Part shown: in pieces, positions 2,818 to 44,599 of the stretch | How positions within the stretch are numbered: position 1 is the stretch's first letter | Layout: each line of letters begins with the position of its first letter | From: Bacillota bacterium | Lineage (GTDB): Bacteria > Bacillota > Clostridia > Acetivibrionales > DTU013 | DNA length: 64,000 nucleotides | Reading direction: 5' to 3' | Assembly (NCBI GenBank): GCA_023411715.1 | Contig: JAEYOM010000004.1 | Coordinates: forward strand, 20,351-84,350 | Notes under the pieces: model-generated | The model's database searches: none | The model's input: the letters and a program-made list of their open reading frames with translations, nothing else | What the model was told of the DNA's origin: nothing | Made by a program: the position numbers and the translations under genes

Positions 2818-2968
2818 TGACCGTCATACCCTGCCAAAACGTATATATCGCAAATTGTATTTCAACAAGATTTCCTTCCAGCTGCTGTAAAACTTGATAC
2901 TGAACAAATGTTCGTATATAATACAACTAAAAAAGTATACAAATAATAAACGGCGGAAAGGGTTCGGT

Positions 2969-4315
2969 ATGGACGGTATTCAGATTACAAAAGTCCAAGC
3001 CCGCAGATTCATGCTGAAATATCACGGGCTTTACGGCAAAAGGCTTCCCAGGGGCAAAAAAGGCATCCTCGAATACGTGCGAAGAGTCGGATGCATACAG
3101 TACGATCCTCTCAATATCGTGGGCCATAACCAGGAACTGGTGCTCCAGTCCAGGATAGACGGCTTCAAACCTGCCATGCTTCAGGAACTCCTATATAATG
3201 ACCGATTGCTGCTGGACGGCTGGGACAAGGTCATGTCGATCTATCTCACCTCAGACTGGCCGTACTTCAGCCGTTACAGGGCATCACAGCTCGAATGGCT
3301 CGGCAGTCCCGACAAGCCCGTTGTCCCCTACCTTCCGCTTATCAGAAACGAGCTTCGGCAGCGTGGCCCTCTTTCCTCCATCGACCTGGAATATGATCAG
3401 GCGGTACGGTGGCCGTGGGGACCTACGCGCGTTTCCAGAGCGGCATTGGAAAGCATGTGGTTCTGGGGTGAACTCATTATACATCACAAGGTCAATACGA
3501 GGAAATATTATGATTTTGCTTCCGGGTACCTGGCGGGAGATTTGCTGAGCACACCCGACCCGAATGAAACCTTTGAACAGTACAGAGACTGGCGCATATG
3601 CCGGAGGATAGGCGGTACGGGATTTTTATGGGACAGGCCCGGCGATGCCTGGCTGGAGATACCCGAAACAAAGACGCCCGAGCGCAGGGAAAGCATTCAA
3701 AGGCTTACGGCCGCCGACAAGCTTTCGGAGATAAACGTGGAAGGAATAAAGGCGCCGCTTTATATGAGGACCTGCGATATGCCGGTATTGGAAGAGATTC
3801 TGAGCGAACAGTCCGGTGCTCAGGCCTCTTCTGCGAAGCTTTCGGCATCTTCCGCGAAGCTTTCGGCATCTTCCGCGAAAGACGACGCGGCTTCTGATAC
3901 AGGCAGCTTCCGCAGTGCTTCGCGTACACCATCCCCGCGCGCCCATATCCTCGCCCCGCTCGACAACCTGCTGTGGGATCGCAGGCTTGTAAAGGAGATA
4001 TTTGATTTCGACTACCGGTGGGAGGTCTACAAACCACAGTCTGAACGCAATTACGGCTATTATGTCCTGCCGGTCCTGTACGGCGACCGGTTTATCGCCA
4101 GGTTTGAACCCGGGTTTGATAAAAAGTCCAAGGCGCTGATGATAAAAAATTGGTGGTGGGAAGCCGGCGTCAAGCCTACCAAACCGATGCAGCGCGGACT
4201 TGCAAAGTGTTTCAGGCTTTTTGCGGAATATCTCGGGACGGACAATATCGGGATGCCCCGGGACGGCTCAGGTAATACTGATGACAGTATAACCTGCTGG
4301 CTCGATGGAATATGA
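2969..4315 (+). CDS. YcaQ/AlkZ-like winged-helix protein (DUF1006-type putative crosslink-repair DNA glycosylase)
   Basis: MDGIQITKVQARRFMLKYHGLYG...GILEYVRRVGCIQYDPLNIVGHNQELVLQSR and a C-terminal YGYYVLPVLYGDRFIARFE motif typical of the family. Start chosen at ATG 2969. Confidence 0.6.
   Translation: MDGIQITKVQARRFMLKYHGLYGKRLPRGKKGILEYVRRVGCIQYDPLNIVGHNQELVLQSRIDGFKPAMLQELLYNDRLLLDGWDKVMSIYLTSDWPYFSRYRASQLEWLGSPDKPVVPYLPLIRNELRQRGPLSSIDLEYDQAVRWPWGPTRVSRAALESMWFWGELIIHHKVNTRKYYDFASGYLAGDLLSTPDPNETFEQYRDWRICRRIGGTGFLWDRPGDAWLEIPETKTPERRESIQRLTAADKLSEINVEGIKAPLYMRTCDMPVLEEILSEQSGAQASSAKLSASSAKLSASSAKDDAASDTGSFRSASRTPSPRAHILAPLDNLLWDRRLVKEIFDFDYRWEVYKPQSERNYGYYVLPVLYGDRFIARFEPGFDKKSKALMIKNWWWEAGVKPTKPMQRGLAKCFRLFAEYLGTDNIGMPRDGSGNTDDSITCWLDGI
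3827..3880. repeat. 21-nt in-frame tandem repeat (2.5 copies) inside the YcaQ-like gene
   Basis: tcttcYgcgaagctttcggca repeated, encoding SSAKLSASSAKLSASSAK. Confidence 0.9.
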
Positions 4316-4326
4316 CTGGTTATGTG

Positions 4327-4420
4327 CATATTCCCGGGTTTAAGATGTATAGCCGGGTTTAAAACGTATAGCTGGGTTTAATGTGTATAGCCGTGTCTAA
4401 GCCATATAGCCGGTTTCCCG
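4327..4420. repeat. 19-bp intergenic tandem repeat, about 5 degenerate copies
   Basis: gtatagccgggtttaaaac-like units starting at 4347, 4366, 4385 and 4404, plus a diverged first copy. Lies between convergent genes. Confidence 0.85.
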
Positions 4421-4444: not shown

Positions 4445-6778
4445 TTAAGGAGTTATCGCCCTGCCGTATTCATCGCCGAACCCGCTCTGGACCGACTCCT
4501 TGCCAAAGTATTTCATAAGCTGCTTTAAATCGGGGTCCTTAACTTTATTATAATATAGACTGTACTGATCCTCCTTCTCCTCGCTGGTCTTGAAACGTTT
4601 TTGCAGCACAAGCAGTCCATTGTACATCAGCGCGAGGTCGTCCTCCCTGCCCTTAAGCAGCTTTGCCGCTTCATCAGGCTTTTCGGTGTTGATCAGATTG
4701 AAAAATTCACTATAGTCTGACGTATCCATTTCCAGGTATTTTTTGATCAGCGGTTTGTAATCCGCGTAGAATGACCCATTATACCTGTAATTTTCGGTAA
4801 GCTGGGGCAAAAGCTCCAGCCTGTTCTGCAGTATATAGAGTATAATCAGGTCTCCCGCGCCTCCGCCCGTCCTTTCGTAAAACCGCTCATAATATTCGGT
4901 GGCTTTTTCGAATTTGCCCATATAACCGTAGTTGCGGCCTATCTGAGGCAGATCATAAGGATTGCTGCTCTTCATAAGCAGTTCAAGGCCTTTCTGCAAT
5001 TCGCCCGAATCGATATAAAGCGATCCGAGCACCGAAAGCAGCTCTTCGTTATCGGGTATTTCACTGATCAACCTCTCAAAATAGCCTTTTGCTTTTTCGG
5101 CGTCCTTGTACTTTAACGAAGACGTTTTACTGTCATATTCCCAGCCATTGTAATAAAGCTTGGCCAATACCTTCAAAGCGTGCAGACTCCCGACTCCTTC
5201 GGCCAGATCTCTTTCATACAGGCTGATCGCCTTGTCGTATTTTTTATCCAGCAATGCAAGATCAGCCTCGTTGAATTCGTCGCCGGCGACAGGCAGTATT
5301 TCCCTATGCCTGCTGGGGTATATGCCGTCGCTGCCGTACATGGTGTTGCCGTTATGGTCGTAGAAGGTTACATAATAGGCGTAATCGCCCGTATGATAAA
5401 ACGGCTCGAAGAGATAATACGGGTCGATACCGTCTGTACCGAAGGAAGCGCCCGTATTCATGCCCCTTTTACGCTCACTGGCAGTATCAAGTATATATTC
5501 TCCGGTTTTTATACTTTCCGAATAAAACATATTGTTGGCCATTATCCGCATGTCTTCAATATCACGCAGTTCTCCCGCGTAAATCGTATAATGATCCGCG
5601 TCTTCCGGCATGTTTACGCTGAAACGGAATTTTCCGCCCCCGATATCCTGCACGCTGACCATCCCGACCGTATCAAGAAATGCTATATCCTTTTTGATTG
5701 CAGTATTTCCTGTGAACTTCAAATTGTTGTCCCCTCCCATGTCGAGAGCCTTTCCCTGGACACGCTGCCAGTCGGCGCCTATAGCGATCACATAAATACC
5801 GTCGGGGATGTTCGTAAACCTGAATTTACCTTCCCTGTCCGTTACTGCAGTGCAGCGCACTCCGTCGCCTTGGCCGAACGTACTGCTCCAACCATTTCTT
5901 GTGGCTTCGTCTTTAAGGAAAATCGTTATATAAGGCGCCGGGCTGCCCTCTATACTGACGCAGCCGCTCAAAACATTATTGTTTTTTTCAGCCGTTTCAA
6001 CACTTCTCAGGTATTTAAAGCCCGACAGTTCGCTATTTATCTGCAGCAAGGGCTTTACAAGCGTTTCGCTGGGCTTTTGCGAAGTAAAAAACAAATTGGG
6101 TATTGCCGCCATCTCTTTATCGAAGCTATCCTTATCTTCCTTCATGTAGCAATAATATGCGTATAACGCGTGCCTGACCGTGGAATAACGGTCCTGCACG
6201 TTGAGATGTTCCTGCAGCACAGCCGCTCCCCTGTCCATCTCTCCGAGCCCCATATACATCGCCGCGAGGTGAAGTTTCCTTAGCGATTCAAGCTTGCCGT
6301 CCCTTATATAGTCAAGCTGTTCAAGCAGCTTGATGGCTTTTTCCCCGTAACCCGAAAAATAATTGGCCAGGGCGACATATATCGTGTATTCCGCCAGCGC
6401 ATCACTTTTCATGGCATGTCCGGCGATATCCCTGTATTGCGCATTGATCCTGTCTGCGCTTTCGGCCCCGATGTAGGAGCAGTTGAACGCAGTGAAACTT
6501 TCGGTGAAAAATAGTTTACTGAAATAGCCGAAGTTTTTATTTTCTACAAGAAGCTCGAGTTTCCTTTGCGCAGCCGAAACAGCGGCATTTGAAGCCGGAG
6601 CGCCCTCTGCGGCCCTGTCGTAATAAACGTCTGCCGCCGCGCCGTTTCCGGCCAACTCGCTGATCCTTCCCAGTAAGTAAAACATACGTCCCTGAAAAAG
6701 CAATAGAGCCGCGATCAAAACGAGCGCAGGCAGAATGATCAAAAGCAGGTGCTTAACCTTAATTCTTATATATCCCAT
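4445..6778 (-). CDS. Membrane-anchored TPR-repeat protein with a central carboxypeptidase-regulatory-like (Ig-like) domain
   Basis: 777 aa. N-terminal TM segment (LLLIILPALVLIAALLLF). Sequence EGKFRFTNIPDGIYVIAIG is typical of CarboxypepD_reg folds. TPR-like helical repeats lie on both sides. Last gene of the sigma/anti-sigma operon. Confidence 0.6.
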   Translation of the reverse strand: MGYIRIKVKHLLLIILPALVLIAALLLFQGRMFYLLGRISELAGNGAAADVYYDRAAEGAPASNAAVSAAQRKLELLVENKNFGYFSKLFFTESFTAFNCSYIGAESADRINAQYRDIAGHAMKSDALAEYTIYVALANYFSGYGEKAIKLLEQLDYIRDGKLESLRKLHLAAMYMGLGEMDRGAAVLQEHLNVQDRYSTVRHALYAYYCYMKEDKDSFDKEMAAIPNLFFTSQKPSETLVKPLLQINSELSGFKYLRSVETAEKNNNVLSGCVSIEGSPAPYITIFLKDEATRNGWSSTFGQGDGVRCTAVTDREGKFRFTNIPDGIYVIAIGADWQRVQGKALDMGGDNNLKFTGNTAIKKDIAFLDTVGMVSVQDIGGGKFRFSVNMPEDADHYTIYAGELRDIEDMRIMANNMFYSESIKTGEYILDTASERKRGMNTGASFGTDGIDPYYLFEPFYHTGDYAYYVTFYDHNGNTMYGSDGIYPSRHREILPVAGDEFNEADLALLDKKYDKAISLYERDLAEGVGSLHALKVLAKLYYNGWEYDSKTSSLKYKDAEKAKGYFERLISEIPDNEELLSVLGSLYIDSGELQKGLELLMKSSNPYDLPQIGRNYGYMGKFEKATEYYERFYERTGGGAGDLIILYILQNRLELLPQLTENYRYNGSFYADYKPLIKKYLEMDTSDYSEFFNLINTEKPDEAAKLLKGREDDLALMYNGLLVLQKRFKTSEEKEDQYSLYYNKVKDPDLKQLMKYFGKESVQSGFGDEYGRAITP

Positions 6779-14070: not shown

Positions 14071-15309
14071 ATGAGCAGAGTGATTTTGCATAGTGATCTC
14101 AATAACTTCTACGCCAGCGTGGAATGCCTGTACAATCCGGAGATACGCGACCGGCCCGTCGCTGTTTGCGGCTCGCAGTCGACACGTCACGGCATCGTGC
14201 TTGCCAAGAACGGGCTCGCAAAAAAATTCGGAGTTGCGGCCGGGGACGCAGTCTGGGAGGCCAGGTCGAAATGCCCGGGGCTCGTGGTGGTAAGGCCGAA
14301 TTACATGCAGTACCTCAAATTTTCCATGATGGTTCGTAAAATTTACGAAAACTATACGAACCTGATCGAGGCCTTCGGCATCGATGAAAACTGGCTCGAC
14401 GTAACGGAAAGCACACGTTTGTATGGCTCCGGCAAGCAGATCGCAGACGAGCTCCGCAAAAGGATAGAGTTCGAACTGGGCATCACCGCTTCCGTGGGCG
14501 TCAGCTTTAATAAAGTCTTCGCGAAGCTTGGTTCTGATATGAAAAAGCCCGATGCGACCACGGTGATAAGCGAGGAAGACTACCGTGAGAAGGTATGGGG
14601 ACTGCCTGTCGGCGATATGATTTACGTAGGCCCGTCCACCCGAAGGAAGCTTACGGACATCGGCATCTCAACGATAGGTGAGCTGGCCGGCGCGCCCCCG
14701 AGGTTCCTGGAACAGCATTTCGGGCAGTGGGGCCGGACGCTCTGGATATTTGCGAACGGTTACGACGATTCCCCGGTGACCCGGCTCGATTTCCAGCCGA
14801 ATATCAAGGGCGTAGGCAATTCGCTCACCACCCCTCACGACCTCCGCGACGACAATGATGTCAAGATACTCACGTACGTATTGGCGGACAGCGTTGCGGA
14901 AAGGCTCCGGAGGCATCATCTCAAAGGCAGGACCGTGCAGATATACATCCGTTCGTCGGATCTTTCCTTTATCGAGCGGCAGGGACAGCTTTCGCACTAC
15001 ACCTGCGTTTCTTCGGAGATAGCTGAGAAGGCGCTCGAGATATTCGGCCAGTCCTGGGACTGGTCCAAAACGATCCGGACGCTCGGCGTCAGGGTTACAA
15101 ATGTGGTAACGGCAGACAGGTGCGGACAGGTATCTTTTTTTGACGATGAAAAACGGCTGCGCCGGGAGCAGCTCGAGAGCAGCATCGATAATATACGGAC
15201 CCGTTTCGGGCATTATTCGGTACAGCGGGCGGTACTGCTGAAAAGTAACGGGCTCAACGCAAATCCGGTGGAGGAAAATGTTATACATCCCGTGTCCTTT
15301 TTCCGGTGA
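14071..15309 (+). CDS. dinB: Y-family DNA polymerase (DinB/Pol IV-like)
   Basis: MSRVILHSDLNNFYASVECLYNPEIRDRPVAVCG...IDENWLDVT...SVGVSFNKVFAKLGSDMKKPD, the canonical ImpB/MucB/SamB motifs. Confidence 0.9.
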   Translation: MSRVILHSDLNNFYASVECLYNPEIRDRPVAVCGSQSTRHGIVLAKNGLAKKFGVAAGDAVWEARSKCPGLVVVRPNYMQYLKFSMMVRKIYENYTNLIEAFGIDENWLDVTESTRLYGSGKQIADELRKRIEFELGITASVGVSFNKVFAKLGSDMKKPDATTVISEEDYREKVWGLPVGDMIYVGPSTRRKLTDIGISTIGELAGAPPRFLEQHFGQWGRTLWIFANGYDDSPVTRLDFQPNIKGVGNSLTTPHDLRDDNDVKILTYVLADSVAERLRRHHLKGRTVQIYIRSSDLSFIERQGQLSHYTCVSSEIAEKALEIFGQSWDWSKTIRTLGVRVTNVVTADRCGQVSFFDDEKRLRREQLESSIDNIRTRFGHYSVQRAVLLKSNGLNANPVEENVIHPVSFFR

Positions 15310-15315
15310 TATGGG

Positions 15316-15428
15316 GCGTACCGGCGGCAGGCTGTGTCGCGAGTGTGCCATACCGGCGGCAGGCTGTGTCGCGAGTGCGCCGTACCGGCGGCAGGCTGTG
15401 TCGCGAGTGCGCCGTACCGGCGGCTTTT
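15316..15428. repeat. 32-bp GC-rich tandem repeat, 3.3 copies, starting 7 nt after the dinB stop
   Basis: The core ccggcggcaggctgtgtcgcgagtgcgccgta recurs with starts at 15321, 15353, 15385 and 15417 (last copy partial), then ttttt. Confidence 0.95.
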
Positions 15429-24104: not shown

Positions 24105-24385
24105 ACTAAAAAACCCCTCGATCCCAGATAAAGGGACGAGAGGATATGACTCACGCGTTACCACCCAAATTACCGCTGTAATTACAGTCTTCGACTGTTA
24201 TTCACGGCAGTCTCTTGATCATACCTTTAACGGAGTGACCCGGCTTATCGTACTTGCGCTTTCACGCTTTCAGCAAGCGGCTCCCGGAGGATTTTCAGGA
24301 AACTCTTCCGCAGCCTCGCACCGGCCGGCTGCTCTCTGTTGGATTAGCGATCCTTACTCGTTCCGATCATAGCAATAAAATATTA
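24105..24385 (-). promoter_or_regulatory. T-box riboswitch leader of ileS
   Basis: The minus strand carries AACAGAGAGCAGCC (stem I AGAGA element), the T-box sequence AAUUUGGGUGGUAACGCGUGA (24151-24170), and the terminator CCUCUCGUCCCUUUAUCUGGGAUCGAGGGGUUUUUU. I could not assign the specifier codon with confidence. Confidence 0.85.
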
Positions 24386-32214: not shown

Positions 32215-32356
32215 AGCAAACCCTCCTCTTTATTTTAATTCCGTCGGCGGAGCCCAGGCGCTTATAATGGGCTGCATTTCATATAACATCTCAGTAGTCG
32301 CAACGCCGATGAACTGGACCCCCGGAGCCCTTCTCCCTGGCAGTGCTCGTCACCAC

Positions 32357-32480
32357 GGATGCATGGGCGAGCAGCAGGCTTTGCCTGCGACCAGCCCGGA
32401 TGCATGGGCGAGCAGCAGGCTTTGCCTGCGACCAGCCCGGTTGTATGGGCGAGCTGCAGGCTACTTTATTCCTGTAGTCT
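32357..32480. repeat. REP-A hairpin element, 3 tandem copies (41-nt period)
   Basis: ggatgcatgggcgagcagcaggctttgcctgcgaccagccc at 32357 and 32398 (identical). A diverged third copy from 32439 overlaps the stop of the 32466 ORF. Confidence 0.95.
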
Positions 32481-32849: not shown

Positions 32850-33635
32850 TCATCTATTGCATTCCAGATACTTCTTTACCAATGGTATTACCTCTTTAGG
32901 ATTTTCCCATAAAGGAAACCCGCCTGCATCTGGGATAACTTTCCTATCAACGAATTTTAATGATTCTTCTAGCATGTCAGCAATTTGTCTAAATTCATCA
33001 AGATCATATATCCCATTATAGATTAATACGGACTGAGTAATGTATTTGAGTTGAGAGTAAACCTCCGGTGCAGGTTTTGGTGTTAATTCACATAACCAGG
33101 GCCTTCCAGTGAAATCATTCACTAATTCCTTCTGTCCTTTTGCATCAGTTTCTTCTTTATGGGTTTGCATATAAGAATACCAGTCTGCATTCTCAAGCCA
33201 ATCGTTAATTGCTTTTTGAACACCTTCTGCTTTTGCAATGTTTTTTGCTCTTGTAATAAGTTCGTTTGTCCTTTTCATTTTAATATCTGGAATTACCGCA
33301 CCTTCTAAGATTAACAATCCGATTAACTCTGGACGTTTAACTGCTATTGCTAATCCTACACCAGTTCCAGTATGCGTTGCCCAATAATATGTGTTTTTAA
33401 TCTGCTCTCTATCTAAAACTTCAATAACATCCTCAGTATATTCAAAACTTCCATACGGTCCACTAATCCCAGCAGAAGTACCATGTCCTCTCAAATCAAT
33501 AAGTAGAAGATTAAAATCATCTGCAAATTCAGTTATAGCATAATTAAAGTAATTACTGTTTTGAGTGAAACCATGTACCAATGTTAACCATGGCTTATTT
33601 TCATTTTCAGTTGAAACTATTTTGTATTTTATCAT
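32850..33635 (-). CDS. Alpha/beta-fold hydrolase
   Basis: Start moved to MIKYKIVSTENENKPWLTLVHGF (33635, RBS AAAGGGGA). Nucleophile elbow ATHTGTG (G-x-S/H-x-G-like). HG oxyanion motif. Confidence 0.7.
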   Translation of the reverse strand: MIKYKIVSTENENKPWLTLVHGFTQNSNYFNYAITEFADDFNLLLIDLRGHGTSAGISGPYGSFEYTEDVIEVLDREQIKNTYYWATHTGTGVGLAIAVKRPELIGLLILEGAVIPDIKMKRTNELITRAKNIAKAEGVQKAINDWLENADWYSYMQTHKEETDAKGQKELVNDFTGRPWLCELTPKPAPEVYSQLKYITQSVLIYNGIYDLDEFRQIADMLEESLKFVDRKVIPDAGGFPLWENPKEVIPLVKKYLECNR

Positions 33636-33680
33636 TCTTCTGTCCCCTTTAAATACTACAAAAACTTTCCCAAAAATAAG

Positions 33681-33700
33681 CGCCTGGATGGCGCATGTTT
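33681..33700 (-). terminator. Small GC hairpin plus U-run inside the hydrolase 5' leader
   Basis: Minus strand GCGCC-AUCCA-GGCGC-UUAUUUUU, 45-65 nt upstream of the hydrolase start. Confidence 0.45.
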
Positions 33701-33731
33701 TTGCGACCAATTTCACTTAACTCTTAGGATC

Positions 33732-33803
33732 GCATATGAAGTTGAGCCAAAACATTGCCAAGAATCAGTCGATTGAACTGACACCTGGCTCAATTTCATA
33801 TGC
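33732..33803. repeat. 18-bp inverted repeat enclosing ~35 nt
   Basis: gcatatgaagttgagccaa ... tggctcaatttcatatgc (one mismatch). Inner hairpin cagtcgattgaactg. Confidence 0.85.
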
Positions 33804-34020
33804 AATTCAGTTGAACGAATCCCTTGATACTTTCTATGGGGATTCAATATATCCAATACTTCTGTGGATTAATGTTTAAATTACCTGACTTATCCTATTT
33901 TATTACACTTTATTCCTTTTAGCAATTAAGCTTTATCTTTATTAAGGTCACAAGGTAGCTTAAGAAAGACAAAAATCTGCCATATCTTGATTTCACCACT
34001 AAAAAAGGGCACACGAATCC

Positions 34021-34155
34021 CTATGCATGTCCTCCAAAACGGGATGTCCAGCATTTTTCTATGGCATCCATTGCCTTTAAATGATGCAGTGGCAATCGAT
34101 GATTTTTTCTGTATTCCTCTCCATATTCACGGAAAATATCTGCCACTTCACTCAT
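34021..34155 (-). mobile_element. Remnant of an IS91-family transposase (N-terminal zinc-binding domain only, truncated)
   Basis: Own translation: MSEVADIFREYGEEYRKNHRLPLHHLKAMDAIEKCWTSRFGGHA-stop. This matches the start of IS91/IS801 transposases (...KAMxAIxxCRTxxLGGH...) and ends before the Cys pairs. Confidence 0.7.
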
Positions 34156-34427
34156 TGCCACATGCCATGACACTTTCCAACGGGCTTGATAGCTTCACTG
34201 AGTCCTGTTGGGCTATGTGTAGGTATACCGTTATATATTATGGTAAACCATTCGTCAAGAATACAAATTGACAGACTGCTAATTGATGGGCAACATACTC
34301 GATATTGGTATCTTATATAATCATATCCCATTGCTGATATTATAAAAAATACCACCCAATCAATTTCGGATGGTATTTTCATATACGGCTTTTTTATTGT
34401 AATTTCTACTAACTTCACTTTAAAATC

Positions 34428-35231
34428 TCAGCTGACCTTCATCTCCAGGCGCAGCTTGTCTGCGACCATTGCTATGAATTCGGAATTGGTGGGCTTGCCC
34501 TTGCCGATGCTGACAGTGTAGCCGAATAATGAATCTATAGCATCTATCTGGCCTCTGCTCCAGGCAACTTCTATCGCATGCCTTATCGCTCTTTCAACAC
34601 GGCTCGGAGTAGTGTTGTATTCACGTGCGATCGACGGGTAAAGCTGTTTGGTAATGGAGTTGATGATATCGAGATCCTTGACTACCATCATGATTGCATC
34701 GCGCAGATACTGGTAACCTTTAATATGTGCGGGGACACCTATCTCATGCATTATGTTCGTGACTTCAACCTCGAGATTCCTCTGAACGGGAACGTGGTAC
34801 GAGGATTTTGTCTCCATCATATGTTCGGATCTGATAACGGAATTGTGGTTGGAATCCTTCAGTTGCCTTATACGAGAAACAAGTACGTCCATGTCGAACG
34901 GTTTTACTATATAATACTCTGCTCCGAGTGCAAGAGCCCTTTGCGTGATTTTATCCTGTCCGACAGCTGAAAGTACTATGAACAGCGGACGCTTCTTAAG
35001 CTGAACGGCTCTCAGTTTCTCCAATACTCCCAATCCGTCAAGATGCGGCATTATAATATCTAGTATGGCAATATCCGGCATCCTTTCGGTGATCAGGTCG
35101 CAAGCTTCATTACCGTCCTTCGCCATACCGACGACTTCAATATCGCCCTGACTGTTAAGGTATTCGCAAAGAATATCACTAAATTCTTTATTGTCATCTG
35201 CTATGACAATTTGTATTTTTCTTTCCAGCAA
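34428..35231 (-). CDS. spo0A: Sporulation master regulator Spo0A
   Basis: Receiver domain ([10 protein letters not shown]...[14 protein letters not shown]) and Spo0A-specific C-terminal DNA-binding domain ([21 protein letters not shown]...[18 protein letters not shown]...[13 protein letters not shown]). TTG start. Confidence 0.95.
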
Positions 35232-35375
35232 TCAAATTCCCCCTCCAAATTCATTCATGACAGCTTCATATGATGTCACCATTTTATTTTAGTTTGGAAT
35301 TTTTATCAAGTATTATTTTATCTATAATTCCATATATTGATTGCTTATTAGTTATTTTTTATGCTTTTATATGAA

Positions 35376-35400
35376 GAAAAGGCTTATTATAAGCCTTTTC
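35376..35400. terminator. Perfect 11-bp hairpin (putative bidirectional terminator) between spoIVB and spo0A
   Basis: GAAAAGGCTTA-tta-TAAGCCTTTTC. Confidence 0.5.
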
Positions 35401-35484
35401 ACTTTTTACATCAATCTGTGATTTTTGTATTATATGTCTGTAATTACATTTGATAATTTCCTTGTTTCACCAGTTTATTTCCTA

Positions 35485-35601
35485 CTAAACATCCTATATG
35501 GATGTTTTAGCGGAAATCCGCGCCTTATGGCGCTAAACATCCTCTTTGAATGTTTTAGCGGAAATCCGCGCCTTAGGGCGCTAAACATCCTATATGGATG
35601 T
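35485..35601. repeat. 48-bp tandem repeat (2.4 copies) of alternating hairpins, overlapping the spoIVB stop
   Basis: ctaaacatcc starts at 35485, 35533 and 35581. Unit: ctaaacatcctatatggatgttttagcggaaatccgcgccttatggcg. Hairpins: aaacatcc/ggatgttt and gcgcc/ggcgc. Confidence 0.95.
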
Positions 35602-36876
35602 ATTTTTCAGCATGGTTTCAATAAATATCCCATAACCTCTTGTCGGGTCGTTTACAAGGACATGCGTCACGGCTCCGATGATCTTTCCATTTTGTATGAT
35701 AGGGCTGCCCGACATCCCCTGTACTATCCCCCCTGTCGTACTGAGCAGACGCTGGTCCGTTACCTTTATGATCATGCCTTTTGAACCATTGAGGTTCTGC
35801 CTGGAAACCTTCTGGATCATGATATCGTATTCTTCAATCTTTTTGCCGTCAATATTTGATAGGATAGTTGCAGGACCTTCTGTGATCTCCGCCCTGACAC
35901 CTACAGGATAGAGCTTCCCCGGTATTCTCGCAACAGAACCCCGGTTGATCTTGCCATAAATGCCGATATTGCTGTTTGTTTGTATAACGCCAAGCTTTGT
36001 GCCTTCCGAAAATATGCCTTTCAGTTCACCCGGATCGCCCTGCGTTCCTTTTTTTATACCCAAAATGCTCGACTCCATTATTTCGCCCGATTCCACCGAC
36101 ATAAGCGTGCCTGTGTCTATATCGGTGATTCCGTGCCCGAGCGCACCGAACCTTCCGGTGTTCATATCGTAATAAGTAAGCGTGCCTATACCGGCCGTAC
36201 TGTCCCTTACCCAAAGTCCGATGTGATATTTATTATCATCCGAAGACATTACCGGCGAAACCATTGCGTCAACAGTATCATTACCTGAGCTGTAACAAAT
36301 TTTCAACGGCTGCCCGTCACTCTGCTCAATAATATCTATCAATTCTTCGACACTTGCGATAAGCTTGTCATTGACTGAAACGATTTTATAACCGGGCCTT
36401 ATTCCGCTGTTTCTTACAGGGATTATCTTCTGGCCGTTGTTTACGACGTCGGAAATACCTATTACGAGTATGCCGTCTAGCTTTATCTTGACGCCTATGG
36501 TATTACCGCACGCTACGACCTGTTTGTTCGATACTATATCGACATTTATCGTCTTTACCGGCAGAACACCGAAAAAGCGCAAATTAAGCTTTACACTGCC
36601 TCCTCTGTCCGAACTGATGGATACAGGTTCAGAAATACCGATTGGATTATTTGAAGATTCGAGGTTTTCGCCATTAATTTCAATAATGCCTTCCGTATCG
36701 GCTTTTATGCTGATAGGGAAAATACTGTCTATATTATAGGTATATTCTTCCCCTTCTATCAGTATCATCTCGCCCGGTACGGTTAGCTGGACCTTTATAT
36801 AAGATACTGCTATCGCAGTAAGGGCTGAAATTGCCAAAACAACCAGTGCTTTCCTCAAAAATGTCAGTTTCCTCAT
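35590..36876 (-). CDS. spoIVB: SpoIVB serine peptidase (S55)
   Basis: 428 aa. PDZ region, GIGTLTYYD...GRFGALGH and GMSGSPIIQNGKIIGAVTHV catalytic motifs. Confidence 0.95.
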   Translation of the reverse strand: MRKLTFLRKALVVLAISALTAIAVSYIKVQLTVPGEMILIEGEEYTYNIDSIFPISIKADTEGIIEINGENLESSNNPIGISEPVSISSDRGGSVKLNLRFFGVLPVKTINVDIVSNKQVVACGNTIGVKIKLDGILVIGISDVVNNGQKIIPVRNSGIRPGYKIVSVNDKLIASVEELIDIIEQSDGQPLKICYSSGNDTVDAMVSPVMSSDDNKYHIGLWVRDSTAGIGTLTYYDMNTGRFGALGHGITDIDTGTLMSVESGEIMESSILGIKKGTQGDPGELKGIFSEGTKLGVIQTNSNIGIYGKINRGSVARIPGKLYPVGVRAEITEGPATILSNIDGKKIEEYDIMIQKVSRQNLNGSKGMIIKVTDQRLLSTTGGIVQGMSGSPIIQNGKIIGAVTHVLVNDPTRGYGIFIETMLKNTSI

Positions 36877-37011: not shown

Positions 37012-38730
37012 TCAAGCTTTATTTATATTTTTTGCACTATTTATCATCTCTTCTGCATATTTCAGAGATGTTGATGATGATTCTGAACCGCCTATCAGTC
37101 TCGCTATCTCCTTTATCTTTTTGCTCTTGTCCAGCAACTCCACAGTCGTCCTTGTATCGTTCTCTCCCGATATTTTTTCAATCAGGTAATGACTGCCCGC
37201 CATACATGCGATTTGAGCAAGATGCGTTACACAGATCACCTGATGCCCCTTTGAAATGTACAAAAGCTTTTCGCCAACCTTTTGTCCGGCTTTACCGCTT
37301 ATTCCGATATCGATCTCATCGAAGATCATTGTAGGTATTTTATCTACTTCGGCCAGTATCGTCTTGATCGCCAGCATGATCCTTGACATTTCACCGCCTG
37401 ATGCTATCTTTGCAAGGGGCTTCAATGGCTCGCCGGCATTAGCTGAGATAAGGAATTCCACCCTGTTGAGGCCGTTTTGCGTATATTTCCTCCAGCCATG
37501 GGCTCCGGCTGCATCATCAAATTGTATTTCCGCCTTGAATCTGGCTCTTTTCATCTCAAGATCGTCAAGCTGCCGGCCTATTCTTTCCTCAAGCAGTGAT
37601 GCAGCTTTCTTCCGCTCATCGTCCAATCTCAGCGACATTTCATAAAGCTGCCTGTCCAGTTCCGCCTGCCTGTTTCTCAAAAGATTGGCGGTTTCTTCAC
37701 TCTTTTCCATCTCGCTCAGTTGTTCCTGAGCCGCATCACAGAATTGCTGGACTTCCTCTATGGAAGAGCCGTACTTCCTCTTCAGTCTGTACAGAAGATC
37801 AAGCCGTTCCTCAATTTCTTCGAGCTGGGCCGGATCATATTCCGTGTTTTCAATGTTTTTCCTTATATCTGCAGTCAGGTCATCCAACTGATATATGATA
37901 TCCTGGAGGCGTTTGCGCAATTCTTCAAATTCATCCTCGAGCCTCGAGACAGATCCCAGTTGTGTAAGCGCCTCATTCATATTATCGGCTGCCGGTCTCC
38001 TTCCGGATTCCCCGGATGAAAGCAGCCCATACGCCACGGAAAGCGCCTCTGATATTTTTTCCGAATTCGCCAGGAGTGTTTTTTGTTTGTTCAGCTCTTC
38101 CTCCTCGCCCGGTTTCAACTTGGCCTTTTTTATCTCATCAATCTGGAATTTGAGAAGATCCATCTTTCTTTCGCGTTCGCCGGGATCCCCCGACAGAGCC
38201 TTCAGCTTTGCCCTGACTTCCCTGTACTGTTCCAGAAGCGTCGTATATTCGCGTCTTATCGATTGGATAGTGTCGCCTCCGAATGAATCCAGCAGATCGA
38301 TGTGGCTTTCCACTCTGAGCAGCGACTGGTTGTCATGCTGCCCGTGCAGGTCGATCAGGCGCTCGCCCAGCGACTTCAGCAAAGATGCCGCCACAAGCCT
38401 TCCGTTGACCCTGCATGTATTTCTGCCCGATTGGGTGAGTTCCCTGGAAAGTATCAAAGTACCGTCTTCTTCAGGATCAATGCCCATTTCGCCGAGAATA
38501 TCTCCGACCTTGTTTGCGTCCGACTGGAAAACAGCTTCAACGACAGCCTTGTCAGAGCCCGTCCTTATGATATCCTTTGAGACCCTGTCACCGAGGACTG
38601 CATTGATGGAATCGATAATTATTGATTTTCCGGCTCCTGTCTCACCGGTAAGTATGTTAAGACCGGAGCCAAGTTCAATATTGACCTCATCTATTAGAGC
38701 GATATCCCGAATGTTCAGCTGTAAAAGCAT
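37012..38730 (-). CDS. recN: DNA repair protein RecN
   Basis: 572 aa. Walker A GETGAGKS, long coiled coil, C-terminal signature SGGEMSRIMLA and Walker B MIFDEID. Confidence 0.95.
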   Translation of the reverse strand: MLLQLNIRDIALIDEVNIELGSGLNILTGETGAGKSIIIDSINAVLGDRVSKDIIRTGSDKAVVEAVFQSDANKVGDILGEMGIDPEEDGTLILSRELTQSGRNTCRVNGRLVAASLLKSLGERLIDLHGQHDNQSLLRVESHIDLLDSFGGDTIQSIRREYTTLLEQYREVRAKLKALSGDPGERERKMDLLKFQIDEIKKAKLKPGEEEELNKQKTLLANSEKISEALSVAYGLLSSGESGRRPAADNMNEALTQLGSVSRLEDEFEELRKRLQDIIYQLDDLTADIRKNIENTEYDPAQLEEIEERLDLLYRLKRKYGSSIEEVQQFCDAAQEQLSEMEKSEETANLLRNRQAELDRQLYEMSLRLDDERKKAASLLEERIGRQLDDLEMKRARFKAEIQFDDAAGAHGWRKYTQNGLNRVEFLISANAGEPLKPLAKIASGGEMSRIMLAIKTILAEVDKIPTMIFDEIDIGISGKAGQKVGEKLLYISKGHQVICVTHLAQIACMAGSHYLIEKISGENDTRTTVELLDKSKKIKEIARLIGGSESSSTSLKYAEEMINSAKNINKA

Positions 38731-43890: not shown

Positions 43891-43956
43891 CGACTTAAAC
43901 CTCCATATCAGCAATAAAGGACGTATCCTGAATCAGGATGCATCCCAGATGATTAA

Positions 43957-44593
43957 GTAAAAACCAGGTGGCAATATATTGAGTAAATTTTGCGGCTTAG
44001 GTCAGGCAGGATTTCCCCCGGAAATACCGATTTGTCGCCAAACCGGCGGTTTCCCTTTAAATTTCCGGCCGCAGCGTTACCGCTGTCGGGGCCTGATTAC
44101 CACTTAGTCCACACTGCAATCCCCAATATATTTCATTTGGAACAGCCTAGGGGTTTTCCCCGGCAGTCTGTCCGTTTCCTAGCCTCTTTTGCAAATAGGG
44201 TTTCAAATAGCGATAATGCGCTCATACCGGCCAGTAATCCTGCATCTGATCCATTATCCACCGTATTCACTCAAGGCAGGCTACGCTGTCCACAGCATCA
44301 AATGATACCGCATAACAGGTTCAATCCCTGATCGTAGTTGATACCAAGCTTCAAAATCCCTTTTTGAATATTCAAAGCCTCTTTCTTCCACAAGTCAGGG
44401 TCTCCACGGTAAAGGGGTCAACGCCTGCATGCCATTGCAGATCGCCCCTGAACCTTAACTCCCAGCACCAGCCCACCACTGGGCGTAGCAAGCCGACACA
44501 AGGAACTTCATCGATATGCCCTTTAACGGATTTTTAGGCCCGTCCTGAGAAACGTCAGTACTGACTAGAATACTGCGCCACCTTGTTTTTTGA
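43957..44593 (-). ncRNA. ole: Large structured ncRNA, proposed OLE (ornate, large, extremophilic) RNA
   Basis: About 640 nt with no credible ORF inside a packed operon. Own promoter. 5' AAGGUGGC pairs with 3' GCCACCUGG, followed by a U-run. A GNRA-capped helix (ACAGCG-GUAA-CGCUGC) exists only on the minus strand. The context ispA-RNA-oapA-dxs-tlyA is diagnostic. No covariance-model search was possible here. Confidence 0.7.
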
Positions 44594-44599
44594 ATTCTT

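What the first reader, a model, noticed from the sequence alone, without database searches (positions are those of the whole stretch)
35485..35601. 48-bp tandem array of alternating hairpins bridging the spoIVB stop codon and the spo0A upstream region
There are 2.4 copies with a strict 48-nt period. Each unit folds into an AT-rich hairpin (AAACATCC-tatat-GGATGTTT) and a GC hairpin (GCGCC-ttat-GGCGC). The last partial copy encodes the final residues and the stop of spoIVB. The 35-nt core GTTTTAGCGGAAATCCGCGCCTTATGGCGCTAAAC superficially looks like a CRISPR repeat (GTTTTAG...CTAAAC). However, the intervening segments are only 13 nt, and two of the three are identical. The array lies ~250-370 nt upstream of spo0A, the most heavily regulated sporulation promoter region. 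A repeated protein- or RNA-binding platform there would matter.
Basis: seen in the sequence. Interest (0 to 1): 0.55.

Follow-up and report, generated by a model that had tools for sequence, protein, structure and literature searches.

The report
Young hairpin tandem duplication after spoIVB
The 48-base repeat between the sporulation genes spoIVB and spo0A is real, but it is a recent, lineage-specific tandem duplication of two small hairpins just past the spoIVB stop codon; close relatives carry two, one or no copies, so it is an ordinary unstable minisatellite rather than a conserved control platform for spo0A.

Summary
Positions 35485-35601 carry 2.4 copies of a 48-nt unit: 62 of 69 positions match at lag 48, P about 1e-29. 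Each unit has an ACATCC-N5-GGATGT hairpin and a GCGCC-N4-GGCGC hairpin, and the copy nearest spoIVB contains the last codons and the TAG stop. The unit is unique to this site. It was not found elsewhere in the 64-kb window, in 185,579 species-representative genomes, or in plasmid, phage or viral collections. The only JGI metagenome hit was the orthologous site. Among uncultured Clostridia whose SpoIVB is 89-94% identical, the site holds 2.5, 1.5, 1.4, about 1.2, 1 or 0 units. At 72-78% identity it holds none. In contrast, an AGGAAAT-N14-AGGAAATT motif, a hairpin at 35376-35400 and the spo0A-proximal promoter are conserved. Within a species the array is invariant (4 and 6 independent contigs). 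There are no Spo0A boxes, no compensatory base-pair changes and no intrinsic-terminator U-tracts. A sub-threshold Rfam STAXI hit (22 of 40.5 bits) is not reproduced in a relative. Best reading: replication slippage made a minisatellite of spoIVB 3'-UTR stem-loops. At most these act as dispensable mRNA 3'-end stabilisers or read-through barriers. Interest is low.

The parts
35485..35601 (-). The tandem array: 2.4 units of 48 nt, described on the spoIVB/spo0A sense (minus) strand. GC is 44%, against 25% for the rest of the intergenic region.
   Evidence: TRF; the repeat finder; composition
35554..35601 (-). Unit 1: the stop-codon-spanning hairpin ACATCC-ATATA-GGATGT plus the core TTTAGCGCC-CTAA-GGCGCGGATTTCCGCTAAA.
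   Evidence: Covariance model R1 scores 75.4 bits; sequence
35506..35553 (-). Unit 2: hairpin ACATTC-AAAGA-GGATGT (one U.G pair on the sense strand) plus a core with loop ATAA.
   Evidence: R1 scores 72.4 bits
35485..35505 (-). Partial unit 3: hairpin ACATCC-ATATA-GGATGT plus TTTAG, running straight into the conserved AGGAAAT motif.
   Evidence: R1 partial hit at 35474-35505, 24.2 bits
35590..35592 (-). The spoIVB TAG stop codon, inside hairpin 35585-35601.
   Evidence: ORF list; sequence
35568..35581 (.). GC hairpin GCGCC-N4-GGCGC of unit 1. The unit 2 copy is at 35520-35533. An alternative 9-bp bulged helix, TTTAGCGCC/GGC[10 nt]GCTAAA, is equally compatible with the sequences.
35590..36876 (-). 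spoIVB CDS (428 aa). Its last four codons, ACA TCC ATA TAG, form the 5' arm and loop of unit 1.
   Evidence: Pfam Peptidase_S55 at 5e-87
34428..35231 (-). spo0A CDS (267 aa, TTG start after GGAGGGGG). This is context.
   Evidence: Pfam Response_reg plus Spo0A_C
35455..35483 (-). Context: the direct repeat AGGAAAT-N14-AGGAAATT begins one base after the array. It is conserved in every relative down to 72% SpoIVB identity. It resembles SigH-type promoters, but that reading is an inference.
   Evidence: alignments; C. difficile SigH promoter examples in PMC7438776
35376..35400 (-). Context: a conserved hairpin, GAAAAGGCTTAT-A-ATAAGCCTTTTC, is the only terminator-like structure between spoIVB and spo0A. 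One of its base pairs runs U-A, U.G and C-G across relatives.
35281..35309 (-). Context: a conserved sigma-A-like promoter, TTGATA-17-TAAAAT, lies proximal to spo0A.
   Evidence: conservation

Best explanation
The array is a young, lineage-restricted minisatellite. A module of two stem-loops sits immediately after the spoIVB stop codon: ACATCC-N5-GGATGT, whose 5' arm is the last codons of spoIVB, and a GC-rich hairpin. Slipped-strand mispairing or unequal exchange between the 21-nt direct repeats ACATCC..GGATGTTTAG that flank the GC core has duplicated and deleted this module in whole-unit steps. The array lies upstream of the only conserved terminator-like hairpin (35376-35400). I therefore infer that it is transcribed as part of the spoIVB 3' UTR and folds into two or three stable stem-loops. 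Its most likely effect is that of a dispensable 3' stabiliser or read-through barrier that hinders 3'-to-5' exoribonucleases, like the 3' inverted repeats of cry mRNAs or REP elements. It is not a conserved operator array for spo0A. What is shown: the repeat, its uniqueness to this site, the gain and loss of units among relatives, and its dispensability. What is inferred: transcription as a 3' UTR, the stabiliser or barrier effect, and the slippage mechanism.
For: The repeat is real and non-random. It is unique to this site. A covariance model of the unit, run with filters off, finds only the array in the 64-kb window and only the spoIVB-stop site in 27 relatives' loci. Pattern scans gave 0 hits in species-representative genomes, only the orthologous contig in JGI metagenomes and 0 in viral contigs. 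BLAST found nothing meaningful in plasmids or phages. Changes occur in whole-unit steps. The window has 2.4 units. L008-type relatives (93% SpoIVB identity) have exactly 48 nt fewer. L016 (94%) has 1.5 units. L017/L039 (93%) have 2.5 units of 47-48 nt. L047 (93%) has about 1.2 decayed units. L012 (89%) has one decayed unit. L010 (90%) has a different single hairpin. L048 (89.5%) has none, and neither do relatives at 72-78%. Cores within one genome are closer to each other than to orthologous cores: 1 of 32 positions differ within the window against at least 3 of 32 to relatives. This indicates recent or independent duplication. Stems are retained while loops vary in sequence and length. The five stem positions that vary within the 93-94% clade all yield G.U pairs on the spoIVB-sense strand, and one change favours the opposite strand. 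Unrelated hairpins span or follow the spoIVB stop in more distant relatives, for example L021 TACGAATA-G-TATTCGTA, and L020. Stabilisation of Firmicute mRNAs by 3' inverted repeats is established (PMC4113751).
Against: No pair shows a compensatory double change, so structure is not statistically supported beyond sequence identity. The G.U bias could simply reflect C-to-T mutation bias on the non-template strand. No U-tract follows any hairpin on the sense strand, so these are not canonical terminators. Several relatives lack any structure here (L048, L014, L019), so any function is dispensable. No transcript data exist, so the 3'-UTR status is inferred. The conserved AGGAAAT-N14-AGGAAATT motif just downstream may be a promoter, which would place the array in upstream-promoter DNA as well.
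Confidence: 0.6

Rival explanations
1. The array is purely neutral junk. It is a slippage-prone palindromic sequence with no effect at the RNA or DNA level, and the stems persist only because the copies are too young to have decayed.
For: There are no compensatory changes. Decayed copies occur in L047 and L012, and the module is absent from L048, L014 and L019. The same 64-kb window holds several other unrelated intergenic tandem arrays, which suggests a genome-wide tendency to short tandem duplication.
Against: Loops have diverged in sequence and length while stems stayed paired. Five of six stem changes are wobble-compatible on the sense strand. Independent, unrelated hairpins recur at the spoIVB stop in distant relatives.
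Confidence: 0.25
2. The array is a repeated double-stranded DNA platform for a regulator (Spo0A~P, a SinR-type protein or another) that controls the spo0A promoter region.
For: The array ends one base from a conserved SigH-like motif (35455-35483) and contains three identical-arm dyads, ACATCC/GGATGT, 48 bp apart.
Against: It is not conserved, ranging from 0 to 2.5 units among 89-94% relatives, while the adjacent motifs are conserved down to 72%. No 0A box with up to 1 mismatch occurs in 35232-35700, where the background rate of 3.5 per kb predicts about 1.6. Dyad spacers are 5 or 6 nt in different copies and lineages. A 48-bp phasing is about 4.6 helical turns, which puts successive dyads on different faces of the helix (inference).
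Confidence: 0.06
3. The array encodes a structured antisense RNA, or a single-stranded DNA element, on the + strand that is related to or built like the STAXI tandem-pseudoknot motif.
For: Rfam STAXI (RF01728) aligns end to end to 35472-35603(+) at 22.4 bits, E = 0.005-0.008. The architecture is similar: a 6+3-bp helix with a 10-nt 5' bulge, CGCCUU-GGGCG, and a period of about 47-48. A sigma-70-like site at 35405-35433(+) and a hairpin plus T-run at 35585-35611(+) could delimit a roughly 170-nt + strand RNA.
Against: The score is far below the gathering threshold of 40.5. The 2.5-unit array of L017 gives no STAXI hit even at E up to 10 in a 281-nt search, and no relative scores. The loops are not UUCG. 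STAXI is an Enterobacteriales motif found near ssb, topoisomerase, antirestriction and integrase genes (PMC2864571). The 10-nt bulge is not conserved. Most stem changes disfavour the + strand. The T-run is just the Lys-Asn codons of spoIVB and is broken in L017.
Confidence: 0.04
4. The GC core is a small mobile palindromic element of the REP, BIME or MITE kind that inserted after spoIVB and then amplified locally.
For: The layout of alternating hairpins just past a stop codon resembles a BIME. L010 carries a roughly 30-nt palindrome flanked by ATGT...ATGT, while L048, from the same 90% SpoIVB cluster as L010, has an empty site. The array's GC content (44%) is foreign to the 25% GC spacer. An IS91 remnant lies 1.3 kb away.
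Against: No second copy exists in 64 kb of this genome with a full covariance-model scan, in about 160 kb of relatives' loci or in any collection scanned. REPs typically occur every few kb (own knowledge).
Confidence: 0.04
5. The array is a degenerate CRISPR mini-array or a tracrRNA-like anti-repeat.
For: The only support is the GTTTTAG...CTAAAC ends of the 35-nt core.
Against: The 'spacers' are 13 nt, two of three are identical, and they base-pair with the repeat ends. No array with this repeat exists in any collection scanned. The neighbours are NAD kinase, argR, recN, spoIVB, spo0A and a hydrolase, with no cas genes. TRF finds no CRISPR-period array in the window.
Confidence: 0.01

Closest known systems
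Intergenic minisatellites / VNTR loci of bacteria (slipped-strand tandem duplications)
   Same: It is a head-to-tail array with a 48-nt period and high copy identity. Whole-unit gains and losses occur between closely related lineages, and short-k-mer assemblies break inside it (L040, L050-52).
   Different: No copy-number polymorphism was seen within a species here (4 and 6 independent contigs were identical). The unit is built from hairpins and includes the end of a coding sequence.
REP/BIME elements of enterobacteria and 3' inverted-repeat 'retroregulator' stabilisers of Bacillus cry mRNAs
   Same: It consists of clustered, alternating stem-loops just downstream of a stop codon and upstream of the terminator. 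The expected effect is a block to 3'-to-5' exoribonucleases (PMC4113751).
   Different: It is not dispersed, occurring at a single locus. No RAYT-type transposase was seen. No functional data exist.
STAXI RNA motif (Rfam RF01728)
   Same: Units of about 47-48 nt repeat in tandem. Each unit is a helix interrupted by a 10-nt 5' bulge and has a CGCCUU.GGGCG-like apex. The cmscan alignment runs end to end.
   Different: The score is 22.4 bits against a gathering threshold of 40.5. There are no UUCG loops. The bulge is not conserved. The taxon (Clostridia rather than Enterobacteriales) and the gene context are wrong. The L017 relative's array, tested on its own, gives no STAXI hit, and none of the six relatives' loci scanned does either.
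CRISPR repeats
   Same: The 35-nt core has GTTTTAG...CTAAAC termini.
   Different: The spacers are 13 nt, non-unique and palindromic. There are no cas genes and no other arrays with this repeat anywhere.

Membership tests
Tandem-duplication minisatellite (VNTR-type locus) | Head-to-tail copies of one unit with high identity, beyond chance | tested here: met
   TRF gives 2.4 copies at 89% matches. 62 of 69 positions match at lag 48, P = 1.7e-29.
Tandem-duplication minisatellite (VNTR-type locus) | Copy number changes in whole-unit steps among related genomes | tested here: met
   Relatives with 89-94% identical SpoIVB carry 2.5, 2.4, 1.5, 1.4, about 1.2, 1 or 0 units.
Tandem-duplication minisatellite (VNTR-type locus) | Copy-number polymorphism among strains of one species | tested here: not met
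   Four independent contigs of the window's species, including a strain with 99.5% identical SpoIVB, are identical across the whole spacer. So are 6 contigs of the L008-type species. Sampling is small and comes from a few projects.
REP/BIME or MITE-like dispersed palindromic element | Many dispersed copies in the same genome | tested here: not met
   Model R1 with filters off finds only the array in 64 kb. There is none elsewhere in the relatives' loci. Collection scans were empty apart from the ortholog. The rest of the genome was not available.
REP/BIME or MITE-like dispersed palindromic element | Associated RAYT / IS200-IS605-type transposase | not tested
   Only an IS91 Zn-finger remnant was noticed, at 34021-34173. 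The whole genome was not available.
STAXI RNA (RF01728) | Score at or above the Rfam gathering threshold (40.5 bits) | tested here: not met
   The score is 22.4 bits, and there was no hit at the gathering threshold.
STAXI RNA (RF01728) | Motif recurs in homologous arrays and has UUCG tetraloops | tested here: not met
   The L017 array gives no STAXI hit at E up to 10, and relatives give none. The + strand loops are UUAU, UUAG, GUAU, GUC and UUU. The feature definition comes from PMC2864571.
STAXI RNA (RF01728) | Pseudoknot involving the internal bulge | tested here: inconclusive
   The 10-nt bulge (GGAAAUCCGC) varies among relatives (GGAAAUUCGC, GGUAAUUCGC, GGUAAAUCGC) without an obvious conserved partner. 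The pseudoknot pairs of the family were not available for a direct test.
CRISPR array | Repeats separated by unique spacers of roughly repeat length | tested here: not met
   The spacers are 13 nt, two of three are identical, and they are complementary to the repeat ends.
CRISPR array | Adjacent cas genes or the same repeat in other arrays | tested here: not met
   The neighbours are NAD kinase, argR, recN, spoIVB, spo0A and a hydrolase. The repeat pattern is absent from genome, metagenome and viral collections other than the ortholog.
Intrinsic (Rho-independent) terminator | GC-rich stem-loop followed directly by a U-tract on the transcribed strand | tested here: not met
   The scan reports no site on the minus strand within the array. 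The tails are UUAGCG and GGAUUUCC. The only terminator-like hairpin is at 35376-35400.
Spo0A-binding region (0A boxes) | TGTCGAA-type 0A boxes (consensus from own knowledge of B. subtilis and Clostridia) | tested here: not met
   There are zero matches with up to 1 mismatch in 35232-35700 on either strand, against a window background of 3.5 per kb.
Conserved structured RNA (any) | Compensatory base-pair covariation | tested here: not met
   None of 11 or 14 pairs shows a change on both sides. Five pairs show one-sided G.U changes. The shuffle controls do not distinguish the alignment from chance.

The most novel reading that the evidence does not exclude
The hairpin cassette varies in copy number and abuts, one base away, a deeply conserved SigH-like AGGAAAT-N14-AGGAAATT element upstream of spo0A. 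It could therefore be an evolvable tuning knob. By adding or removing stem-loop units, lineages might adjust how much forespore spoIVB transcription reads into the spo0A leader, or alter the upstream context of the distal spo0A promoter. This would give species-specific settings of the sporulation master regulator. A variant of this reading is that the + strand makes a STAXI-like tandem-hairpin RNA in Clostridia.
Probability: 0.07. Interest if true: 0.5.

Novelty: new member of a known kind. Interest (0 to 1): 0.2.

Why it matters
If the best explanation is right, the array matters little. It is one more example of hairpin-promoted tandem duplication in a bacterial 3' UTR, in an uncultured Clostridia lineage, and it should not be annotated as a CRISPR array, a riboswitch or a spo0A operator. 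It has practical uses as a species- or lineage-level marker, as a known breakpoint for short-k-mer assemblies, and as a natural copy-number series (0, 1, 1.5, 2.5 units) for testing how 3' stem-loops affect mRNA stability or read-through between spoIVB and spo0A. The conserved elements next to it (the AGGAAAT repeat and the 35376-35400 hairpin) are better candidates for spo0A control.

Tried and rejected
- **CRISPR.** Rejected on geometry, gene neighbourhood and the absence of the repeat elsewhere.
- **Known RNA family.** At gathering thresholds Rfam finds only OLE and a T-box elsewhere in the window. In E-value mode it gives a 22-bit STAXI hit plus obvious noise (a Tetrahymena snoRNA and ctRNA). 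The STAXI hit was not reproduced in L017 or in any of the six relatives' loci scanned.
- **Dispersed repeat.** A stem-anchored pattern scan of genome contigs found nothing. The metagenome scan found only the ortholog. The viral scan was empty. BLAST against plasmids and phages found nothing, apart from one 24-nt chance hit at E = 0.4. Model R1 found no extra copies.
- **Covariation test of two alternative folds.** No compensatory pairs appeared, so the test cannot distinguish the contiguous GC hairpin from the bulged 9-bp helix.
- **Spo0A boxes.** None found.
- **Coding potential.** The + strand ORF 35425-35784 (119 aa), which runs through the array, was rejected. It is antisense to spoIVB, and the 47-nt units of L016 and L017 would shift its frame.
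- **Strain-level VNTR.** No variation was seen within species.
- **Literature.** No paper in the library describes a repeat between spoIVB and spo0A.
- **Wasted look-up.** P0127 turned out to be the window's own protein.

Full report
**1. What is there**

All relevant genes are on the minus strand: recN (37012-38730), spoIVB (35590-36876) and spo0A (34428-35231). Pfam confirms SpoIVB (Peptidase_S55, 5e-87) and Spo0A (Response_reg plus Spo0A_C).

TRF reports a 48-nt period at 35485-35601, with 2.4 copies, 89% matches and no indels. At lag 48, 62 of 69 positions agree, P = 1.7e-29. The 35-nt core occurs twice, once exactly and once with one mismatch, and in none of 100 shuffles.

Read on the sense (minus) strand the layout is:

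...AAA AAT ACA TCC ATA TAG | GATGT-TTAGCGCC-CTAA-GGCGCGGATTTCCGCTAAA | ACATTC-AAAGA-GGATGT-TTAGCGCC-ATAA-GGCGCGGATTTCCGCTAAA | ACATCC-ATATA-GGATGT-TTAG | TAGGAAAT...

The spoIVB stop codon and its last three sense codons therefore form the 5' arm and loop of the first hairpin. Both strands fold much better than shuffled controls, with z = -6.9 and -7.1. The array has 44% GC in a spacer that is otherwise 25% GC.

**2. Where it comes from**

The window matches a metagenome scaffold (ENA ERZ28599450, 212 kb). The SpoIVB relatives that sources name are MAGs labelled Clostridia, Acetivibrionales or Ruminiclostridium. An OLE RNA in the window fits an anaerobic Firmicute.

**3. Is the unit found anywhere else?**

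No. Evidence:
- A stem-anchored pattern with free loops has 0 hits in 185,579 species-representative genomes.
- It has one hit in JGI metagenomes, which is the orthologous spoIVB-spo0A site of a relative.
- It has 0 hits in viral contigs.
- BLAST finds nothing in plasmids and only a 24-nt chance match in phages.
- A covariance model of the unit (R1), run with filters off, finds only the array in the 64-kb window; the next best hit scores 10 bits at E = 1.5.
- In 27 loci from relatives it finds only the site at the spoIVB stop.

The unit is therefore not a dispersed REP/MITE-type element or a CRISPR repeat family, within the sequence available.

**4. Comparison with relatives (the key result)**

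I recovered the spoIVB-spo0A spacer from relatives graded by SpoIVB identity:

| Relative | SpoIVB identity | State of the site |
|---|---|---|
| Window species (4 independent contigs, including a 99.5% strain) | 99.5-100% | 2.4 units, whole spacer identical |
| L008-type (6 independent contigs) | 93% | Exactly 48 nt shorter: 1.4 units |
| L016 | 94% | 1.5 units |
| L017/L039 | 93% | 2.5 units of 47-48 nt |
| L047 | 93% | One unit plus a decayed second hairpin |
| L012 | 89% | One unit with decayed stems |
| L010 | 90% | A different single 10-bp hairpin |
| L048 | 89.5% | Nothing: TAA, then 12 nt, then AGGAAAT |
| L014, L019, L021, L024 | 72-78% | No unit |

L021 and L020 have unrelated hairpins spanning or following the stop.

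Cores within one genome are more alike than orthologous cores: 1 difference between the window's two cores against at least 3 to any relative. The window combines an AAAGA-loop hairpin, seen otherwise in L016 and L017, with an ATATA-loop terminal hairpin, seen in L008. I infer that several whole-unit gains and losses occurred within a clade whose SpoIVB differs by only 6-7%.

Logan (k=31) contigs end inside the array (L040, L050-52). This is expected for a repeat. The k141 assemblies span it.

By contrast, the sequence flanking the array is conserved:
- AGGAAAT-N14-AGGAAATT (35455-35483) is kept down to 72% SpoIVB identity.
- The 35376-35400 hairpin is kept down to 78% identity (L014), with one pair running U-A, U.G and C-G across relatives.
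- The spo0A-proximal TTGATA-17-TAAAAT block is kept in all relatives.

**5. Structure and strand**

On an alignment of 11 full or partial units, both candidate folds are more than 93% paired. One fold is hairpin A plus a contiguous GC hairpin. The other is hairpin A plus a 9-bp helix with a 10-nt bulge. Neither shows any compensatory double change, and the shuffle controls are uninformative.

Five stem pairs vary by a one-sided change, and every such change gives a G.U pair on the spoIVB-sense strand. One further change (L017 unit 1) favours the other strand. Loops vary freely in sequence and length (5 or 6 nt; 3 or 4 nt).

This is mild evidence that the hairpins matter as sense-strand RNA. 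It could equally reflect C-to-T bias on the non-template strand and the youth of the copies.

No hairpin is followed by a U-tract on the sense strand. They are therefore not canonical terminators. The only terminator-like structure is 85 nt further downstream, at 35376-35400.

**6. Tests of specific ideas**

- *Spo0A platform.* No 0A box with up to 1 mismatch occurs anywhere in 35232-35700.
- *CRISPR.* The 13-nt, non-unique 'spacers', the absence of cas neighbours and the absence of other arrays rule it out.
- *Known RNA family.* In E-value mode Rfam aligns STAXI (RF01728) end to end on the + strand at 22.4 bits (gathering threshold 40.5), with a genuinely similar unit architecture and period. 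However, STAXI is an enterobacterial motif with UUCG loops found near DNA-handling genes (PMC2864571). The equally long array of L017 gives no STAXI hit at E up to 10, and no relative scores. I treat the resemblance as architectural, not as membership.
- *Coding.* The + strand ORF through the array is rejected because it is antisense to spoIVB and its frame is broken by the 47-nt units in relatives.

**7. Mechanism**

Shown: the array is a unique, young duplication in whole-unit steps, and relatives do without it.

Inferred:
- Origin. Slipped-strand mispairing or unequal exchange between the 21-nt direct repeats (ACATCC..GGATGTTTAG) that bracket the GC core in the 1.4-unit state. The hairpins themselves probably favour this, which is established behaviour of palindromic repeats.
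- Function. The array lies between the stop codon and the only terminator-like hairpin. It should therefore be part of the spoIVB 3' UTR and fold into two or three stem-loops. The most plausible effect is a modest, dispensable protection against 3'-to-5' exoribonucleases or a partial barrier to read-through towards spo0A. This is analogous to 3' inverted repeats that stabilise cry mRNAs (PMC4113751) and to REP elements.

A purely neutral status is the main rival. I give the spo0A-operator reading about 6%.

**8. Novelty and verdict**

The array is a real feature and was correctly described. It is an ordinary kind of thing: a lineage-specific hairpin minisatellite in a 3' UTR or intergenic spacer. 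It is a new member of a known kind, and interest is about 0.2.

The most novel reading not excluded is that unit number tunes spoIVB-to-spo0A read-through or the upstream context of a SigH-like distal promoter. A variant is a Clostridial STAXI-like RNA on the + strand. I give these readings about 7% together.

Noticed in passing
window 43952-44597 (-): A full-length OLE (ornate large extremophilic) RNA scores 532 bits. It fits an anaerobic Firmicute host.
   Followed up: no
window 24129-24379 (-): A T-box leader scores 123 bits against a gathering threshold of 93.
   Followed up: no
window 35455-35483 (-): The direct repeat AGGAAAT-N14-AGGAAATT starts one base after the array. It is conserved in every relative down to 72% SpoIVB identity. 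It resembles C. difficile SigH promoters such as AAAGGAAAATATTCTTTTATGTAGAATTAT (PMC7438776), although its second element reads GAAAT rather than GAAT. It is a better candidate than the array for spo0A control.
   Followed up: partly
window 35376-35400: The perfect 12-bp palindrome GAAAAGGCTTAT-A-ATAAGCCTTTTC is conserved across relatives. One of its pairs runs U-A (6 sequences), U.G (2) and C-G (1). It looks like a terminator on both strands. It may be the spoIVB terminator or an attenuator in a spo0A leader.
   Followed up: partly
window 15317-15424: A 32-nt GC-rich unit (CGTACCGGCGGCAGGCTGTGTCGCGAGTGCGC) is repeated 3.4 times at 96% identity. It starts 8 nt after the stop of ORF 14071-15309(+) and ends in GCCGTACCGGCGGC-TTTTT, which is terminator-like. 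This is another tandem duplication at a gene's 3' end.
   Followed up: partly
window 32356-32462: A 41-nt unit is repeated 2.6 times at 95% identity in the spacer downstream of the hydrolase gene 32850-33716(-). On the minus strand it folds as tandem hairpins, z = -3.6.
   Followed up: partly
window 4334-4413: A 19/38-nt repeat (CCGGGTTTAAGACGTATAG, about 4 copies) lies between the convergent ORFs 2894-4315(+) and 4445-6778(-). It shows no special folding. Together with the two arrays above, it suggests that this genome is prone to short intergenic tandem duplications.
   Followed up: partly
window 33720-34427, especially 34021-34173 (-): A roughly 600-nt insertion lies between spo0A and the downstream hydrolase; in L012 that spacer is only 121 nt. 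It carries a remnant of an IS91-family transposase Zn-binding domain (PF14319, 27 bits).
   Followed up: partly
L021 about 3770-3790; L020 about 3785-3827: More distant relatives have unrelated hairpins at the same place. In L021 the palindrome TACGAATA-G-TATTCGTA spans the spoIVB TAG stop. In L020 the hairpin GATAGGG...CCCTATC follows the stop. Structure at the spoIVB 3' end thus recurs independently.
   Followed up: no
L040 (end), L050-L052 (ends): Logan contigs from four runs stop 28-62 nt past the spoIVB stop, inside the repeat. The array acts as an assembly breakpoint for short-k-mer assemblers.
   Followed up: yes
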